Assembly: GCA_000002445.1 (NCBI GenBank)
Contig: CH464491.1
Span: 4,736,001-4,800,000 of the forward strand
Reading direction: 5' to 3'
DNA from: Trypanosoma brucei
Lineage: Eukaryota
DNA length: 64,000 bases
Part shown: positions 47,401-53,400 of the stretch, piece by piece
How the letters are laid out: each line of letters starts with the position of its first letter
Numbering within the stretch: the stretch's first letter is position 1
Program-made: the position numbers

Positions 47401-50400
47401 AGGTTAATTCTCTGTCATATTTGTTATGTCACTTACTTCTTCATCTTGAAGGAATACGGCACTCACACACACTAAATGTAATGGGAACGGCAATAGTAAA
47501 GTTTCTAAGATACAAAATTTCATTCCCTTAATTTACTTAAAATTTTTAAGAAGTTTAAAATAAAATCATAGCAAACAAAAGAAAAAAGTCTAATGAGTCA
47601 CTAATGTGTTTACATAAGCAATCCATTGACAGTTTTATGATTCTGTTGTTGAATATATATGCTACGTGTTGTTATTTTTTTTTGAGCACTCATCTACCGC
47701 TTGAGTAATCATATTCAGTCTCATATAGTACTGATACACACTAAACGCATACCAGTGCGTTTTGTACTCTTCACATATTTCCTCTGTGCATAGTTATGGG
47801 AATGGAAGTAGTTGCTTGCACTGATTAGTTCAGATATACTAGAAATTTTACCAGTTGCGTGCGCTAGCTATTCCAATTACACGCTTTCCATCATAGGACT
47901 CCCATCAGCGTGACGTTTAGAACTGCTTCTACTACTACTGCTCGCATCGTCTCTACCGCCGCGTCTATCCATTATATAATGAATTGTAGAGTCCAATATT
48001 CTCCTGTTAATGCTAATATATCACCATTTTACGTGTTATTCAGGGTGTGGCGCGGAGACTTTATATTGTCTCTACACAAGAATATCTCTCTTTCTCACTG
48101 TACCTTTATTATTTCCTTGTTTATAAGGTTTTCCATCATTATATTTATTTTTTGAAAACGTGTATGTTCTATATCTCTCAATTCATTTCTACACATCTCC
48201 AGTTGTCTCGTTTAACAGTTTCCCTTATGCTTTTTACTAACATACTCCCATTGAAACCATTTCATTTGGTCTTAACCACAAGTATTATTATAATATTCGT
48301 ATACACACTCTCACAACGCTCTCCTATCATTATCATCATTACTGCTCTTATTAAAATATTAGTATATACTCACACTCATAACACTTTCCTATTATTATTG
48401 TTGTTATAACCCTAACTAATTTTCGTAAACAAAAAATAAACAAAATTAGTAAAAGTTTCATAATAACACTCACTTTTATAACCTTGCGGCGAAATGGTAC
48501 GGGCTTACGTTTTTTCTCAGATTGATAACCTTTACCCCCTCTTTTATGATTCATTTAAGTCACCTGCAAGAGAGCATAAGTGTTGAGAGTATGTTTTTTT
48601 TTGTGAAATATCAAATTTACTTATTTTAATGCTTTCATCCTTCACGGGGGTAGAATGGTTGACCAGTGTCAAAACTTTTATAGAGTTTCCTCAACAAAAA
48701 GAGCGAACCTAGTTTTATTTTGATTTTCGACACGCTAGAACCCCAACGTAATATACAATGTGGATGGCTTTGTGATAATCGAAAATAGAAATATCATGGT
48801 TTATTTGAACCAAGAACGGAAAATGGATCTGGGATCGCTAAGACAATTGATGGTAAGCTCTACATAACCCCGAAACTCAGATTTTTTAAAGGCTATTTTG
48901 AAGAGGCGAGAGGAGCACTACGTGCAGAATGGGCGACATTAGAAGCTACAGAATCAGCACTTTATTATCAGTTTGAAAGTGCATGTGCACAACCCACCGA
49001 CGAAAATTTTCGAGTGTAACATGAATCAAATGAACAGCTGAGCGGGATGCAAAAGCAACTAAAACATATGGAATAATTAAATGCATAACGAGTAGCGTAC
49101 ATTGAGGTCCAGGCCTAAAAAATTGCTACGCTGCGGCAAAAATTGGTTATAACTGAATGTAAGAGAGATGACACAGGGAAGTGTCAGAAACAACAGAGCA
49201 AATCGGACACGTGGAAGGCCAAACATATAGATGAATGCGCATGGAAAGGTTGTTTCCCGCCGAAAGAAGTAACTTAACCTTTGTCACATAGGGTTTGACT
49301 TCGAGGGATCCAGGAGTTACGGGAAAGCGCATGGGGTATGCCTGGAGGAGTAAGCACTAAAGAAAAAATTCGGACCTTTGAGGGAGTGATGAAATATCTC
49401 CAGGGAAGAACGCCTGAACAATTGTTATCGGCGTATCAGTTCGTGTTTCCACCACCAACAACGTCACCGGGACAAGTATATACCGAGGCATGAAAAACTT
49501 CGCATCATGGGCATTGCGCCTGCACCAAGACGGCATATCGGAGGAACGCCCCCAACTAGGAAAACAATTGTATGATAAGGTGTGCACAGTACAAACGGTA
49601 AAAGACTACCCGGGGCTGAGGTTTAAAGACATGAAGGAAGCTATAGGATTCCCTATCAAAAGGGATGACATGTTCCTTCCGGCCTCTATGAAAGAGAAAC
49701 GACAACAACAACAACAAATCGGTGTCCCTCCGAGAAGGTCTCAATGTTTCACATGCGGACAATTGGGGCATTACAGCAATACTTGTGGGGTGTTCAAACA
49801 TAAACTAAACACACGTCAAAAAAGCGACATTCAGTTCAAGAAGCAATGAATTTGGGGTCCTTTAATATTTCCCTACCTGTATTCCATCACAAGGGAAAAA
49901 CCAACACAACGGAGAAAGTCATACACTGGAGGACGATAACAATTACCACTCCTCGTCGAAAAATGAGTTACCCGACACGGACGGGGACAGTAAGACTCTT
50001 ACGCGCAGAAAAGTCGACAGCAGCTCAACGTATGAGAGGAGCCTTTCAAGGGAGCTTGGAAATGCCAAATTGAAATTAAAAACATGCCACAAAGAGGGTT
50101 TCGGTAAACGAAGTCACGGTTATTCTAGCTTATACACACAATCCGCATGTTGTGACACTGGTGTCAGAAGCAAACAAAAAGTAGCAAAAAGGATGTGAAC
50201 ACGCACAACATGAGAACAGAAAGGGTCCATAATCCGAAAGTTCTATGTGTTTACATACAAACACGGATTACCGGCGGTCGAAAAGACAGTCCCCCTTTTT
50301 ATCGTAAGTTTGAAACTGGAAAAAAGCAGCGCAACACAGTACATAAGGACACTACTATCATTACTAGCCGCAGAGCATACACCTGCGTGAATGTTGTTTT

Positions 50401-53400
50401 TAGCCGGATTATGCAGAATGGTAGGGAGAGATACCATAAAACAGGCTCACCCCATGCTGCGTTGGGAGCTCGAACTCGTATGCGATATGTTAACACCAGA
50501 GCGGGATCGAGTGGCTTTAAGGCTTGCCTGAATCACAGCCAGCAGATGGGAAGAAATAGCACAGCTACAGAAAGAGAATTTTGTGCCCCATCCACAAGAC
50601 AAAGAAGATGATGCGATAGTGGTAAACTGAGGAGCACTCCCAAAGACATTCAAAAGCGATACACACAGAGCCGCAAGGTATGTGTTAATAAAGGGAGAAT
50701 ATGCTGGAAGGATCCAAAATGTAATCAGGGAAATGGAAGAGGGCGAGAAAGCTCACGGCCATCATAACGAAGGGAATGGAAACAATATTCTGCCCATTTG
50801 GGGTGACTGCGCATTCCATAAAGAAAGGGACTTTGGCACACCCATAGTCGGCATTAGTGGCGTAAAAACACACGACCTCTATCCAATATTATTAACACAA
50901 TTGGGGAAGCACACAGACCCTTAGGAGCTTCCACAAAGAACGGTGAGACGCTATCTGAGTCTATGGACCGCCACCATCAACAAGTCAGAGTTGTTAACCA
51001 CGTTGATGTAAAACCCCTGATAGGGAGTAAAGAAGATTTACCATGGGATATGCCAGAGAATTCCCGCCGAGCAGGGAGGGCATTATGGTCAAGAAATATT
51101 ATTGAGGACACAGCGTTATTCGGTGCTCGTAAGAAACACGAGTAGCGTCTAAGGAAGAAAAGATGATATTACCTCTTCAGAAAGTAAATGTAGGGACACT
51201 GTCTTGGAACGGCTACGAAAACGAATGAAGGATGAGGCACGACAACGGTTTGACAAGGTATGGAACATGATGATTGCCACGGAAGGAAAATCGAAAGAAA
51301 GAGACAGGAAGTCACATTTTCGGATTGCGGAAAAAGATGCTGTACCCATGAAAGAAGCGGGGGTTATAAGCCAAGCTTCAGATCTTCCCTCAAAGGGATG
51401 GGTCATATCTTTTCAGTTGTGAAGGAGAAGCCGGCAGGAAAAAGACGCCGATTTATTGCTGGGCCCAAGGTTAAAAATGCGAAAAATGATTACGAGGGTG
51501 GAGTCCTGTTGGGACACATATCCCAATATCTAAGTGCAGTTTATGATGAATCCGCAGGGTTGTTTGATTTAAAGGCTTCTTTTTTCCGGATGAACATGCC
51601 ACAAAAGACATTTGAGTGGGTCTCCGCTGCTGCACAGAAAAGTGGGGAACTCGTAGAATTGAATCAACTCCAATTGGTTAATAAATGAAGCCATGAAATT
51701 GTACACACATCACGAGAGTTTTGGCAGGAGATCCTGGGGCAGCGAAACCACAATATGCGGCCACCAACGAATTGAGGGTGCACACATGGATCGACAACAT
51801 CCGTATCAGTAGACCACACAAAACGGTCAAGGAATGGGGGGACCACATTGCTAAAAACATGAAAGAGTGCGGAGTAAATGTTGGTGAGCAAAGAAATGGC
51901 AACACGTTACGAATTTATCGGGTTTTTATTTGACCATGACAAGCAGACGTTTTTGTTGAATGCAAAGACAATACGGCGGATTCGAGAATCGGCTCCACCC
52001 GAGACAGCGACCATTAAACAGAAGGAGAGAGTTGTATTCTGCATGATATACGTGGCTGGTATTAGGGAGCGACTTTTCTCCTGCTATATTTTCTCGAAAA
52101 TGGAGCATTGTCGTTTATATCTCAAAATAGGAAATTGGTGCACCCTTCCGATAAGGCGTCCCTTCCAAAAAGTGCATTGAAGCTGGCGAAGCAGTGGATG
52201 AGCACGTTGTTAAAAAATGTGCCAGTGGTTCCACCACAGGTTCAGCCCACTACGGCCACGCTGGTGACGGATGCATCCGTGCAGGGATGGGGAGGGATGT
52301 TATTTCGAGATAAAGGAGAAATCTTAATAGCAGGAGAGTCCTGGGAAAAGGTACCCCACATGATAGCACAATGTAAAGCACGAGTGATTCAACTCATCCT
52401 GTTGGCGTTGCACGGCTGTTTCGATGGGCCATTGCATATATGCGTGGATAAAACCACTGTGATGCATATCATAAGAAAAAGAAACACACATTCAGGCGCC
52501 CTAGTGAGAGAGGCATCTAAAAGTGACAGGGTATTACGACAAGAACTGATAAATGCCACATGGAGTTGCGTACTTTCCGGGGTAAATCCAACCGATGGGG
52601 TGTTTCGAGGGCAACCTGTCAGGGGACAGGACTTAGCGACGGAGTGTAACATGTGGGGAGGAGCGCGGGAGGCGGGTTAAAGGCGCTTTAAGACACTTCC
52701 GCTTCGTAAGTAATAGTGGCGGTTAAATTAATAACAGTAAAGTCGGTTTGCGATATGAGTCATATTTCAGTAAAAATCATTTGTACGAAAACACTCTTAT
52801 ATTTATGGTATATTTTTTCTATTACTGTGTTGTAGAGAAGTGAGACTAGACTATTCTTAGCCATCACTGCCAAAAAACTTCTTGCGCTCAAGTTGTATCG
52901 AAAGTATTTAACTCTCAACAATGTTTTTCGATGGGCAAGGTAAGGGGAAAGGAGAAGTTGTGTCGCTGATAGTTTGCTGCTTGTTGGAAGTGGTAAAGGG
53001 AGGAAAAAACAAACCAACTTGTCAGATGGGAGTGGCTTTCAGGAAAACCTGTACAGTTGAAACTGGGGAAGGGAAAGTTACGGAAGGATAAAACAAATTT
53101 GGTAATCGAATTTGTCACCGATGATAAAAACAAACGAACGGAGTTCACCACCCTGAAACCATAGCTGCGTCTTCCTCCGTCACATACGGCACAACAACGT
53201 AAGCCTAATGTTTCTTGTATGAAGAAACGCATTGTTGCTCAGGAGACGCCCATGGCCATGGCACTTTAACTAGACGCTAAGCCGGCGAAAGAACTATGCC
53301 AAGCTCGAGAGCACAACAGTTGCGGCTGATGGCGCTCACGAAAACGTGTGATGGCGGGAGGTTGCTGAGTTCAGAAACGTCAATGCCAACGGCATCATTC

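What the first reader, a model, noticed from the sequence alone, without database searches (positions are those of the whole stretch)
48780..52700. Array boundary marked by a VIPER/DIRS-like retroelement relic
Immediately after the last 70-bp repeats (48283..48420) the VSG array stops. A plus-strand LTR-class retroelement remnant follows, with a Gag CCHC knuckle (CFTCGQLGHYSNTC), RT motif remnants and a TDAS RNase H, all heavily frame-broken. In T. brucei the only LTR-class-like elements described are vestigial VIPER/SIRE copies. The ~1.5 kb between the Gag and RT (ORF 50195..50611 with HAALGARTRMRY) could be the tyrosine-recombinase remnant expected for a DIRS-like element.
Basis: partly seen in the sequence, partly recalled or inferred. 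Interest (0 to 1): 0.5.

Follow-up and report, generated by a model that had tools for sequence, protein, structure and literature searches.

The report
Dead VIPER retrotransposon beside VSG array
The region is a dead, heavily mutated copy of VIPER, a tyrosine-recombinase retrotransposon already catalogued in Trypanosoma brucei, lying just past the last variant-surface-glycoprotein (VSG) gene cassette; it is a real but ordinary genomic fossil.

Summary
On the + strand, window 48629-52713 carries the three VIPER reading frames in canonical order. They are a Gag-like ORF with a CCHC knuckle (48629-49849), a tyrosine recombinase (about 50014-51011) and an RT/RNase H (about 50840/51094-52680). On the best path they are broken by at least 19 stops and about a dozen frameshifts.

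Conceptual translations match intact T. theileri VIPER proteins: RT/RH E=7.6e-123, recombinase E=2.8e-65, and Gag co-linear to the shared stop. They match T. cruzi VIPER reference blocks (E=4e-34 and 4e-26) but not TATE (0.004 and 0.78). An 85%-identical paralogue on T. b. gambiense chromosome 6 is already listed as a degenerate VIPER by Ribeiro et al. 2019.

The recombinase assignment is supported by a family profile hitting Cre (E=5e-9) and by a pLDDT-90 model whose top 32 structure matches are all tyrosine recombinases.

- The recombinase lies in another frame than the ORF cited (HAALGARTRMRY is out of frame).
- The element starts about 150 bp further upstream.
- No split direct repeats or SIRE-like ends survive.

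The "array boundary marker" idea rests on this one position. The paralogue sits among same-strand non-VSG genes, with no VSG-family hit. Already known; low interest.

The parts
48283..48420 (-). Last two 70-bp-repeat units, upstream of the last minus-strand VSG cassette. This is context, not part of the element.
   Evidence: The repeat core CTCAYAACRCTYTCCTAT sits at 48310 and 48375 and recurs at 20850 and 23505; 0.02 matches are expected by chance. Sequence read.
48629..49849 (+). VIPER ORF1 remnant (Gag-like). It has an ATG at 48629 and a coiled-coil-like middle part. The CX2CX4HX4C knuckle is at 49745-49786 and the ORF ends KKQ* at 49847-49849. On the best path it has 8 in-frame stops and 3 frameshifts.
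   Evidence: tblastn of T. theileri VIPER Gag (L004 6603-7868) and of P0016 is co-linear from residue 7 (48635) to the shared C-terminal KKQ-stop, with linked E=1e-35 to 1e-37. Pfam zf-CCHC E=2e-4.
50014..51011 (+). VIPER ORF2 remnant (tyrosine recombinase). It lies mainly in coordinate frame 0, with a frame-1 excursion at 50806-50844. Residues aligned with the catalytic positions: Arg in ITASRWEEI (50532-50567), Lys in GALPKT (50631-50660), HSIKK (50806-50844), His in GKHTDP (50889-50921) and Tyr in RRYLS (50940-50960). It ends TTLM* as in the intact homologue. At least 8 stops and at least 3 frameshifts.
   Evidence: P0012 (T. theileri VIPER YR, 319 aa) aligns over residues 4-319 at 55% identity, E=4.8e-82 by tblastn and E=2.8e-65 in the database search. 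The family profile A2 hits Cre at E=5e-9. An AF2 model of P0012 (pLDDT 90.4) has Cre/Tre, Xer and phage integrases as top folds. Motif coordinates.
50453..50488 (+). It is an out-of-frame (frame 2) reading of the recombinase region, not a recombinase motif.
   Evidence: The true frame here reads KQAHPMLRWELELVCDML and aligns to P0012. The frame-2 ORF has no Pfam hit.
50840..52680 (+). VIPER ORF3 remnant (reverse transcriptase plus RNase H). Its N-terminal extension overlaps the end of ORF2. The RT core is at about 51400-52100 (FDLKASFF, WIDNIRIS, YEFIGF). RNase H is at about 52240-52620 (TDAS, VDKTTV, NPTDG). It ends GAREAG* at 52678-52680. At least 6 frameshifts and at least 3 stops on the best path.
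   Evidence: The conceptual translation hits T. theileri P0001 at E=7.6e-123 (51% identity, 97% coverage), plus T. grayi P0003 and T. congolense P0010. tblastn paths are. Homologues carry RVT_1, RVT_3 and RT_RNaseH hits, though below Pfam gathering scores. It matches the T. cruzi VIPER RT/RH block at E=4e-34 and 4e-21.
52681..52713 (+). Short conserved 3' tail after the ORF3 stop, ending in CACTTCCGCTTCGTAAGTAA. This is the last position at which this copy is alignable to other VIPER copies.
   Evidence: Smith-Waterman against L003 ends at 52713. Alignment A3 with T. b. gambiense, three T. theileri copies and the T. cruzi SIRE B region shows invariant C..TCGT.AGT columns. The SIRE match itself is marginal: 20 nt at 90%, E=0.078.

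Best explanation
Window 48629-52713 (+) is a vestigial copy of VIPER, the DIRS-order tyrosine-recombinase retrotransposon of trypanosomatids, in a Trypanozoon (T. brucei group) genome. It keeps the whole coding body in canonical order. ORF1 is Gag-like with a CCHC zinc knuckle, ORF2 is a Cre-like tyrosine recombinase, and ORF3 is RT/RNase H whose start overlaps the end of ORF2.

How an active VIPER is thought to work follows from what is known of DIRS-order elements and was not tested here. The element is transcribed and Gag binds the RNA. RT/RH copies the RNA into DNA, which is closed into a circle with the help of split direct repeats. The tyrosine recombinase then inserts the circle without target-site duplication.

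This copy cannot do any of that. On the best alignment path it carries at least 19 in-frame stops and about a dozen frameshifts, and no terminal repeats remain. It is therefore a non-functional molecular fossil.

Its position is about 200 bp beyond the last 70-bp repeats of a minus-strand VSG array and it points away from that array. This is most simply explained by an old insertion that was tolerated and decayed in a region the tools show to hold little coding sequence. It need not be a boundary device (inferred).
For: **Homology of all three ORFs to intact VIPER ORFs of T. theileri**
- RT/RH: E=7.6e-123.
- YR: E=2.8e-65, 55% identity over 98% of the query.
- Gag: co-linear with the same stop position.
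- The T. theileri copy that contributes P0012 (NBCO01000001.1:190527-200565) is one of the VIPER copies characterised by Ribeiro et al. 2019 (PMC6681497, Additional file 3).

**Paralogue already catalogued**
- L003 (T. b. gambiense chr 6) is 84.6% identical over 3994 aligned columns.
- Its position coincides with 'Tbg972_06_540613_556837, degenerated' in that paper's VIPER table.

**VIPER rather than TATE**
- RT/RH: E=4e-34 and 4e-21 against T. cruzi VIPER, 0.004 against TATE.
- YR: E=4e-26 against T. cruzi VIPER, 0.78 against TATE.
- T. brucei is reported to have 76 VIPER fragments and 0 TATE (PMC12278014).

**Recombinase nature of ORF2**
- 636 relatives were found. An alignment of 67 of them has nearly invariant R, K, H-S-x-K-x-G, H and Y columns.
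- The profile matches Cre at E=5e-9. The scoring stretch aligns the N-terminal domain plus Arg I and Lys; the HSxR box falls in a separate, non-significant stretch.
- The AF2 model has pLDDT 90.4, and all 32 hits with E<=1e-3 are tyrosine recombinases.

**Decay**
- Frames and stops are shown.
- 18 frameshifting indels distinguish this copy from L003.
Against: - No split direct repeats, LTRs or inverted repeats are detectable around the element, so completeness at the DNA ends cannot be shown.
- Pfam models do not hit the window's own conceptual YR or RT/RH translations.
- Pfam hits on the intact homologues are below gathering thresholds. Domain identity therefore rests on family-level profile and fold evidence and on the literature.
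- The T. cruzi VIPER and TATE references used are trimmed alignment blocks copied from a paper's supplement, not full proteins.
- The species is inferred from one VSG gene that is identical to a T. equiperdum OVI gene.
Confidence: 0.93

Rival explanations
1. The relic has been co-opted as a boundary or insulator element. On this reading it delimits the silent VSG array from the neighbouring chromatin, or it is a preferred landmark of array ends.
For: Position only. The element starts about 200 bp after the last 70-bp repeats. No VSG or ingi similarity follows in 52713-64000. The other end of the array carries an ingi-type element. Several catalogued T. brucei VIPER copies lie on unassigned 'bin' or telomeric contigs, judging only from the contig names in PMC6681497 Additional file 2.
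Against: The only paralogue whose context could be read (L003) lies among same-strand genes, none with a VSG-family Pfam hit. The sequence decays like neutral DNA: 15% divergence from the paralogue, only a slight third-position excess and many private indels. No structured RNA family is detected. A single locus cannot establish an association.
Confidence: 0.04
2. It is a TATE element, the other kinetoplastid tyrosine-recombinase retrotransposon, rather than VIPER.
For: TATE has the same ORF order and the same enzyme set (PMC6681497).
Against: The window's YR and RT/RH match T. cruzi VIPER blocks at E=4e-26 and 4e-34, but TATE blocks only at 0.78 and 0.004. The CCHC box is reported for VIPER Gag, and TATE Gag has no clear CH-box. 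TATE is reported absent from T. brucei.
Confidence: 0.01
3. It is a canonical LTR retrotransposon (Ty3/Gypsy, Copia or Bel-Pao type) remnant, with protease and DDE integrase.
For: The Gag CCHC knuckle, and an RT/RNase H of the LTR-like class (a distant database hit, P0011, carries RT_RNaseH domains).
Against: There are no LTRs. No rve or RVP Pfam hit appears in any ORF. The whole Gag-to-RT interval is accounted for by a Cre-like recombinase homologue. No typical LTR elements are reported in trypanosomatids (PMC12278014).
Confidence: 0.005
4. It is a domesticated VIPER-derived host gene, as reported for a VIPER-derived gene in the Leishmania braziliensis group, rather than a dead element.
For: A VIPER-derived gene exists in L. 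braziliensis and close relatives (PMC6681497). Short ORFs of paralogues are annotated as hypothetical proteins (P0014, P0018).
Against: The longest intact ORF here is 190 aa, and every domain is interrupted by stops or frameshifts. Paralogues differ by private frameshifts.
Confidence: 0.01

Closest known systems
VIPER (vestigial interposed retroelement) of Trypanosoma; the degenerate T. brucei copies reported by Lorenzi et al. 2006 and catalogued by Ribeiro et al. 2019 (PMC6681497)
   Same: It has the same three ORFs in the same order, with ORF2 and ORF3 overlapping, and a CX2CX4HX4C box in Gag. The recombinase carries the ASRW...K...HSIK(R/K)G...KH...RYL motifs. The RT carries WIDNIRI and the RNase H carries TDAS...DNT...NPADG. 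It is 85% identical in DNA to a catalogued T. b. gambiense copy and, like all T. brucei copies analysed in that paper, is 'degenerated'.
   Different: Nothing essential. Compared with potentially active T. cruzi Dm28c copies, it lacks the A1/B1-A2-B2 split direct repeats and is only about 36-41% identical in protein to them. Whether this particular copy is among those listed could not be checked, because the window's genome coordinates are not known.
SIRE (short interspersed repetitive element of T. cruzi, equal to the A2+B2 repeats of VIPER)
   Same: One 20-nt stretch just after the ORF3 stop (52696-52715) resembles the SIRE B region. It is 90% identical at E=0.078, which is marginal.
   Different: No SIRE-length similarity exists anywhere in the window. 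The papers read here describe SIRE only in T. cruzi.
TATE (telomere-associated transposable element) of Leishmania (Viannia) and other trypanosomatids
   Same: It has the same DIRS-order architecture (Gag-like, YR, RT/RH) and the same presumed mechanism.
   Different: Sequence similarity is at or near background. The TATE recombinase is much longer, its Gag has no clear CH-box, and TATE is reported absent from T. brucei.
DIRS1, Ngaro and PAT-like elements, and Cre/Crypton-type tyrosine recombinases
   Same: They use a tyrosine recombinase instead of a DDE integrase. The ORF2 family matches Cre by profile (E=5e-9) and by fold.
   Different: No DIRS1-type inverted terminal repeats or internal complementary region were found. 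VIPER-like elements are treated as a separate subgroup in PMC6681497.

Membership tests
VIPER (VIPER-like subgroup of DIRS-order retrotransposons) | ORF1 is Gag-like, in first position, with a CX2CX4HX4C zinc knuckle (reported for Trypanosoma VIPERs) | tested here: met
   CFTCGQLGHYSNTC at 49745-49786, Pfam zf-CCHC E=2e-4. The ORF is co-linear with T. theileri VIPER Gag from residue 7 to the shared stop.
VIPER (VIPER-like subgroup of DIRS-order retrotransposons) | ORF2 encodes a tyrosine recombinase (R-K-H-R/K-H-Y catalytic set, Cre-like fold) | tested here: met
   55% identity to T. theileri VIPER YR P0012 over 98% of the query. The family profile matches Cre at E=5e-9. The AF2 model (pLDDT 90.4) has only tyrosine recombinases among its top hits. 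The window keeps codons for R, K, H, K, H and Y at the aligned positions, although the ORF itself is broken.
VIPER (VIPER-like subgroup of DIRS-order retrotransposons) | ORF3 encodes RT followed by RNase H | tested here: met
   E=7.6e-123 to T. theileri RT/RH. The homologues show RVT_1, RVT_3 and RT_RNaseH Pfam matches, below gathering score. The motifs FDLKASFF, WIDNIRIS, TDAS, VDKTTV and NPTDG are located.
VIPER (VIPER-like subgroup of DIRS-order retrotransposons) | Order Gag, then YR, then RT/RH on one strand, with YR and RT/RH ORFs overlapping | tested here: met
   Coordinates are 48629-49849, 50014-51011 and 50840-52680, all on the + strand. The ORF3 N-terminal extension aligns from 50840, which is before the ORF2 stop at 51009-51011.
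VIPER (VIPER-like subgroup of DIRS-order retrotransposons) | Closer in RT/RH and YR sequence to reference T. cruzi VIPER than to TATE | tested here: met
   blastp against blocks taken from PMC6681497 supplements gives VIPER 4e-34, 4e-21 and 4e-26, against TATE 0.004 and 0.78. No tree was built.
VIPER (VIPER-like subgroup of DIRS-order retrotransposons) | Split direct repeats A1 ... B1-A2-B2 at the ends (a feature of complete, potentially autonomous copies) | tested here: not met
   There are no direct repeats of 20 nt or more linking the flanks. Local alignment of 48421-48700 against 52681-55200 scores 20, against a shuffled mean of 21.5. This matches the state of relic copies: all T. brucei copies are scored 'degenerated' in PMC6681497. 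It bears on completeness, not on descent.
SIRE (T. cruzi) | About 430-bp unit equal to the VIPER A2+B2 repeats | tested here: not met
   blastn of a T. cruzi A2+B2 sequence (from a PMC6681497 supplement) against the window returns only a 20-nt match at 52696-52715, E=0.078.
Ty3/Gypsy and other LTR retrotransposons | Long terminal repeats, and a DDE integrase (rve) with aspartic protease | tested here: not met
   No LTR-like direct repeats. No rve or RVP hits at E up to 1-10. The interval where pol would lie is occupied by a recombinase homologue.
DIRS1-type elements (sensu stricto) | Inverted terminal repeats plus an internal complementary region | tested here: not met
   Only three short (21-34 nt, 71-81% complementary) inverted pairs occur in 47500-56000, and none brackets the element.
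ingi/DIRE non-LTR retroposons | APE endonuclease followed by a LINE-type RT; no Gag knuckle or recombinase | tested here: not met
   The window's own ingi-type ORFs (835-2964) lie in the part of the window that showed no tblastx similarity to 52713-64000. VIPER proteins hit only 48500-52800. The architecture differs.

The most novel reading that the evidence does not exclude
Two readings are not excluded.

1. VIPER relics could be non-randomly retained at the edges of silent VSG arrays and act as, or coincide with, chromatin or compartment borders.

2. The roughly 20-nt motif CACTTCC..TTCGTnAGT, 15-33 nt after the ORF3 stop, could be the functional 3' end or recombinase crossover site of VIPER. 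It is conserved in T. brucei-group, T. theileri and (marginally) T. cruzi SIRE sequences, and both T. brucei-group copies stop being alignable to each other exactly there. The crossover site of VIPER has not been defined.
Probability: 0.06. Interest if true: 0.45.

Novelty: already known. Interest (0 to 1): 0.12.

Why it matters
It matters little beyond annotation. The call identifies about 4.1 kb next to a VSG array as a VIPER fossil rather than unexplained sequence, and it corrects the frame of the recombinase remnant. It also gives exact limits: from the gag ATG to 33 nt past the RT/RH stop.

VIPER relics are useful as neutral markers for dating rearrangements of subtelomeric VSG arrays. 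A genome-wide look at their positions relative to array ends would be cheap to do. This single copy adds nothing new to what Lorenzi et al. 2006, Ribeiro et al. 2019 and the 2025 trypanosomatid mobilome survey (PMC12278014) already describe.

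Tried and rejected
- **Pfam on the window's ORFs and stitched translations.** Only zf-CCHC was found; there was nothing for YR or RT/RH. I therefore moved to homologue searches.
Rejected, because it is the wrong frame.
- **Terminal repeats.** The repeat finder, shuffled-control local alignments and a T. cruzi SIRE/5'-end blastn found none.
- **Tandem repeats in 44-64 kb.** None.
- **Rfam over the whole window.** No hits.
- **Profile search to reach T. cruzi or Leishmania proteins.** The candidate cap kept it within Trypanosoma, so reference VIPER and TATE blocks were taken from a paper's supplement instead.
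- **Identifying the source genome.** Exact-protein look-up failed for two ORFs and succeeded for one VSG, which matches T. equiperdum OVI at 100% over 2781 nt.
- **Were the two T. brucei-group copies duplicated after death?** Three shared stops fall at Trp codons, but 18 private frameshifting indels and a slight third-position excess argue for separate insertions followed by independent decay. This was left unresolved.
- **Lorenzi et al. 2006.** The paper could not be read because it is not held.
- **Other VIPER fragments in the window.** None.

Full report
**1. What is in the sequence**

ORFs tested by Pfam between about 6 and 32 kb are minus-strand VSGs (PF00913, PF13206, PF10659). The composition profile shows the same periodic pattern out to about 48 kb. 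An ingi-type non-LTR element lies at the left end, with an APE ORF at 2164-2964 and an RT ORF at 835-1944, both on the minus strand. One VSG gene (17852-19324) is identical in protein, and 100% identical over 2781 nt of DNA, to a T. equiperdum OVI contig. The window therefore comes from a Trypanozoon (T. brucei group) genome.

Two 70-bp-repeat units lie at 48283-48420 in the orientation expected for minus-strand VSGs.

From 49 to 54 kb the strand composition flips: AT skew changes from negative to +0.2 to +0.3.

- CFTCGQLGHYSNTC at 49745-49786
- LVTDASVQGWGG at 52261-52296
- HAALGARTRMRY at 50453-50488

**2. Identity of the three coding remnants**

*RT/RNase H.* A translation stitched from three frames (about 51390-52680) finds T. 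theileri proteins at E=7.6e-123 (51% identity over 97% of the query). It also finds T. grayi 'TcC31.12' and a T. congolense fragment. The match runs to a shared C-terminus (GAREAG-stop, 52678-52680). Upstream it extends through 51094, and more weakly from 50840.

*Tyrosine recombinase.* The 1.5 kb between Gag and RT, read in coordinate frame 0, finds an intact 319-aa T. theileri protein, P0012, at E=2.8e-65 (55% identity, 98% coverage). By tblastn, residues 4-319 of P0012 cover 50014-51008, and both sequences end ...TSLM/TTLM-stop. A short stretch (50806-50844, GVTAHSIKKGTLAHP) is displaced into frame 1.

*Gag.* The T. theileri Gag-like ORF next to P0012 (L004 6603-7868) and the N-terminus of P0016 align co-linearly from residue 7 (48635) to the common KKQ-stop at 49847-49849. 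An ATG at 48629 fits the start.

**3. Is ORF2 really a tyrosine recombinase?**

Pfam barely sees it: Phage_integrase scores E=0.069 on P0012. An exhaustive HMMER search with P0012 found 636 relatives. An alignment of 67 of them (A2) has nearly invariant R171, K202, H258-S259-x-K261-x-G263, H288 and Y301.

The A2 profile hits Cre recombinase at E=5e-9. The scoring stretch aligns the N-terminal domain plus the Arg I (ASRW / TLLR) and Lys (KTKT) positions. The HSxKxGA box lines up with Cre's HSARVGA only in a second, non-significant stretch. Six of the 67 members reach Pfam Phage_integrase at E<=0.01.

An AlphaFold2 model of P0012 built on A2 has mean pLDDT 90.4. All 32 PDB matches with E<=1e-3 are tyrosine recombinases: Cre/Tre, Xer and phage integrases. 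The next few are also tyrosine recombinases, including the Tn1549 integrase. TM-scores are only about 0.4, probably because the relative orientation of the two domains differs.

The window copy retains codons for the residues aligned with R, K, H, K, H and Y.

**4. VIPER, not TATE or an LTR element**

The T. theileri copy carrying P0012 (NBCO01000001.1:190527-200565) is one of the VIPER copies characterised by Ribeiro et al. 2019, in Additional file 3. P0012 also appears in their YR alignment next to T. cruzi Dm28c VIPER.

I took the T. cruzi VIPER and TATE blocks from those supplementary alignments and compared them by blastp:

| Window translation | vs T. cruzi VIPER | vs TATE |
|---|---|---|
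| RT/RH | E=4e-34 and 4e-21 (about 36% identity) | 0.004 |
| YR | E=4e-26 (41% identity) | 0.78 |

No integrase or protease signal and no LTRs were found.

The published descriptions fit on several points:
- ORF order Gag-like, YR, RT/RH, with the last two overlapping.
- A CH-box in Trypanosoma VIPER Gag.
- No TATE in T. brucei.
- Only degenerate VIPER copies in T. brucei: 36 YR and 58 RT/RH tblastn hits in TREU927 (PMC6681497), and 76 fragments by RepeatMasker (PMC12278014).

**5. A paralogue and the element's limits**

P0014, a T. b. gambiense 'hypothetical protein', led to locus L003 (FN554969.1:539913-556527). This coincides with 'Tbg972_06_540613_556837, degenerated' in the VIPER table of PMC6681497.

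The window and L003 align from 48640 to 52713 at 84.6% identity over 3994 columns, and not beyond on either side. The 18 frameshifting indels that distinguish them show that most of the decay was independent.

Differences by codon position are 0.128, 0.114 and 0.171 (chi-square p=3.6e-4). This weak third-position excess suggests that part of the divergence predates inactivation.

In L003 the relic lies among same-strand genes, none with a VSG-family Pfam hit. VIPER relics are therefore not specific to VSG-array ends.

**6. Decay and missing ends**

On the best path:
- Gag has 8 stops and 3 frameshifts.
- YR has at least 8 stops and at least 3 frameshifts.
- RT/RH has at least 3 stops and at least 6 frameshifts.

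No split direct repeats, LTRs or flanking inverted repeats are detectable, and shuffled controls confirm this. A T. cruzi A2+B2 (SIRE) sequence gives only a 20-nt, E=0.078 match at 52696-52715.

That match falls on a short motif (CACTTCC..TTCGTnAGT) just after the ORF3 stop. The motif is conserved among the window, L003 and three T. theileri copies, and it is exactly where the two T. brucei-group copies cease to align. I did not pursue this further.

**7. Context to the right**

The region 52713-64000 has no similarity to the VSG/ingi part of the window, no VIPER pieces, no Rfam family and no tandem repeats. It holds one 294-aa minus-strand ORF (58798-59682) with a signal-like N-terminus and no Pfam match.

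Within this window the VSG array does end at the 70-bp repeats. The first recognisable feature after them is the VIPER relic, which is oriented away from the array.

**8. Verdict**

The element is a non-functional fossil of a family already described in T. brucei. The mechanism given for active VIPERs is established knowledge about DIRS-order elements and was not tested here.

The boundary-marker idea is a single positional coincidence and remains speculative. Novelty: already known. Interest: low.

Noticed in passing
window 835-2964 (-): Pieces of an ingi-type non-LTR retroposon: an APE endonuclease ORF at 2164-2964 (PF14529, E=1.8e-11) upstream of an RT ORF at 835-1944 (PF00078, E=6e-45). 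The minus-strand VSG array is therefore bracketed by retroelement sequence at both ends of the window.
   Followed up: partly
window 52693-52713; L003 10681-10701; L004 about 10626-10646; L001 and L002 just after their RT/RH stops: A short motif, CACTTCC..TTCGTnAGT, lies 15-33 nt after the VIPER ORF3 stop. It is conserved across T. brucei-group and T. theileri copies and resembles a stretch of the T. cruzi SIRE B repeat (20 nt, 90%, E=0.078). The two T. brucei-group copies lose mutual homology exactly there. It could be the element's end or a recombination site.
   Followed up: partly
window 58798-59682 (-): A 294-aa ORF with a signal-peptide-like start (MFKIAVTLLLTLRAS), a Ser/Gly/Ala-rich body and a hydrophobic C-terminus. 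It has no Pfam match and no exact match in the protein collection. It is the only long ORF to the right of the relic.
   Followed up: partly
window 48408-48416: AACCCTAAC, one and a half telomere-repeat units, lies directly after the last 70-bp repeat. No longer telomeric tract occurs anywhere in the window, so this may be chance.
   Followed up: partly
window 50178-51008 vs L003 8194-9092: Four of the six stops in the main recombinase alignment of the window copy fall at Trp codons of the intact homologue (P0012 residues 56, 61, 166, 197). Three of these (61, 166, 197) are also stops in the T. b. gambiense paralogue. Either the lesions are ancestral or TGG-to-stop transitions occurred in parallel.
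   Followed up: partly
window 53000-54100 (+): A purine-rich stretch (AT skew +0.33, GC skew +0.17, GC 0.49) lies immediately downstream of the relic. It has no coding or repeat signal and no similarity to VIPER flanks in other loci.
   Followed up: no
proteins P0001, P0004, P0007, P0009, P0012, P0013 (T. theileri, T. grayi, Leptomonas pyrrhocoris): VIPER ORFs in public annotations carry misleading names: 'target of rapamycin (TOR) kinase 1', 'trans-sialidase' and 'rab1 small GTP-binding protein'. These look like annotation-transfer errors.
   Followed up: no
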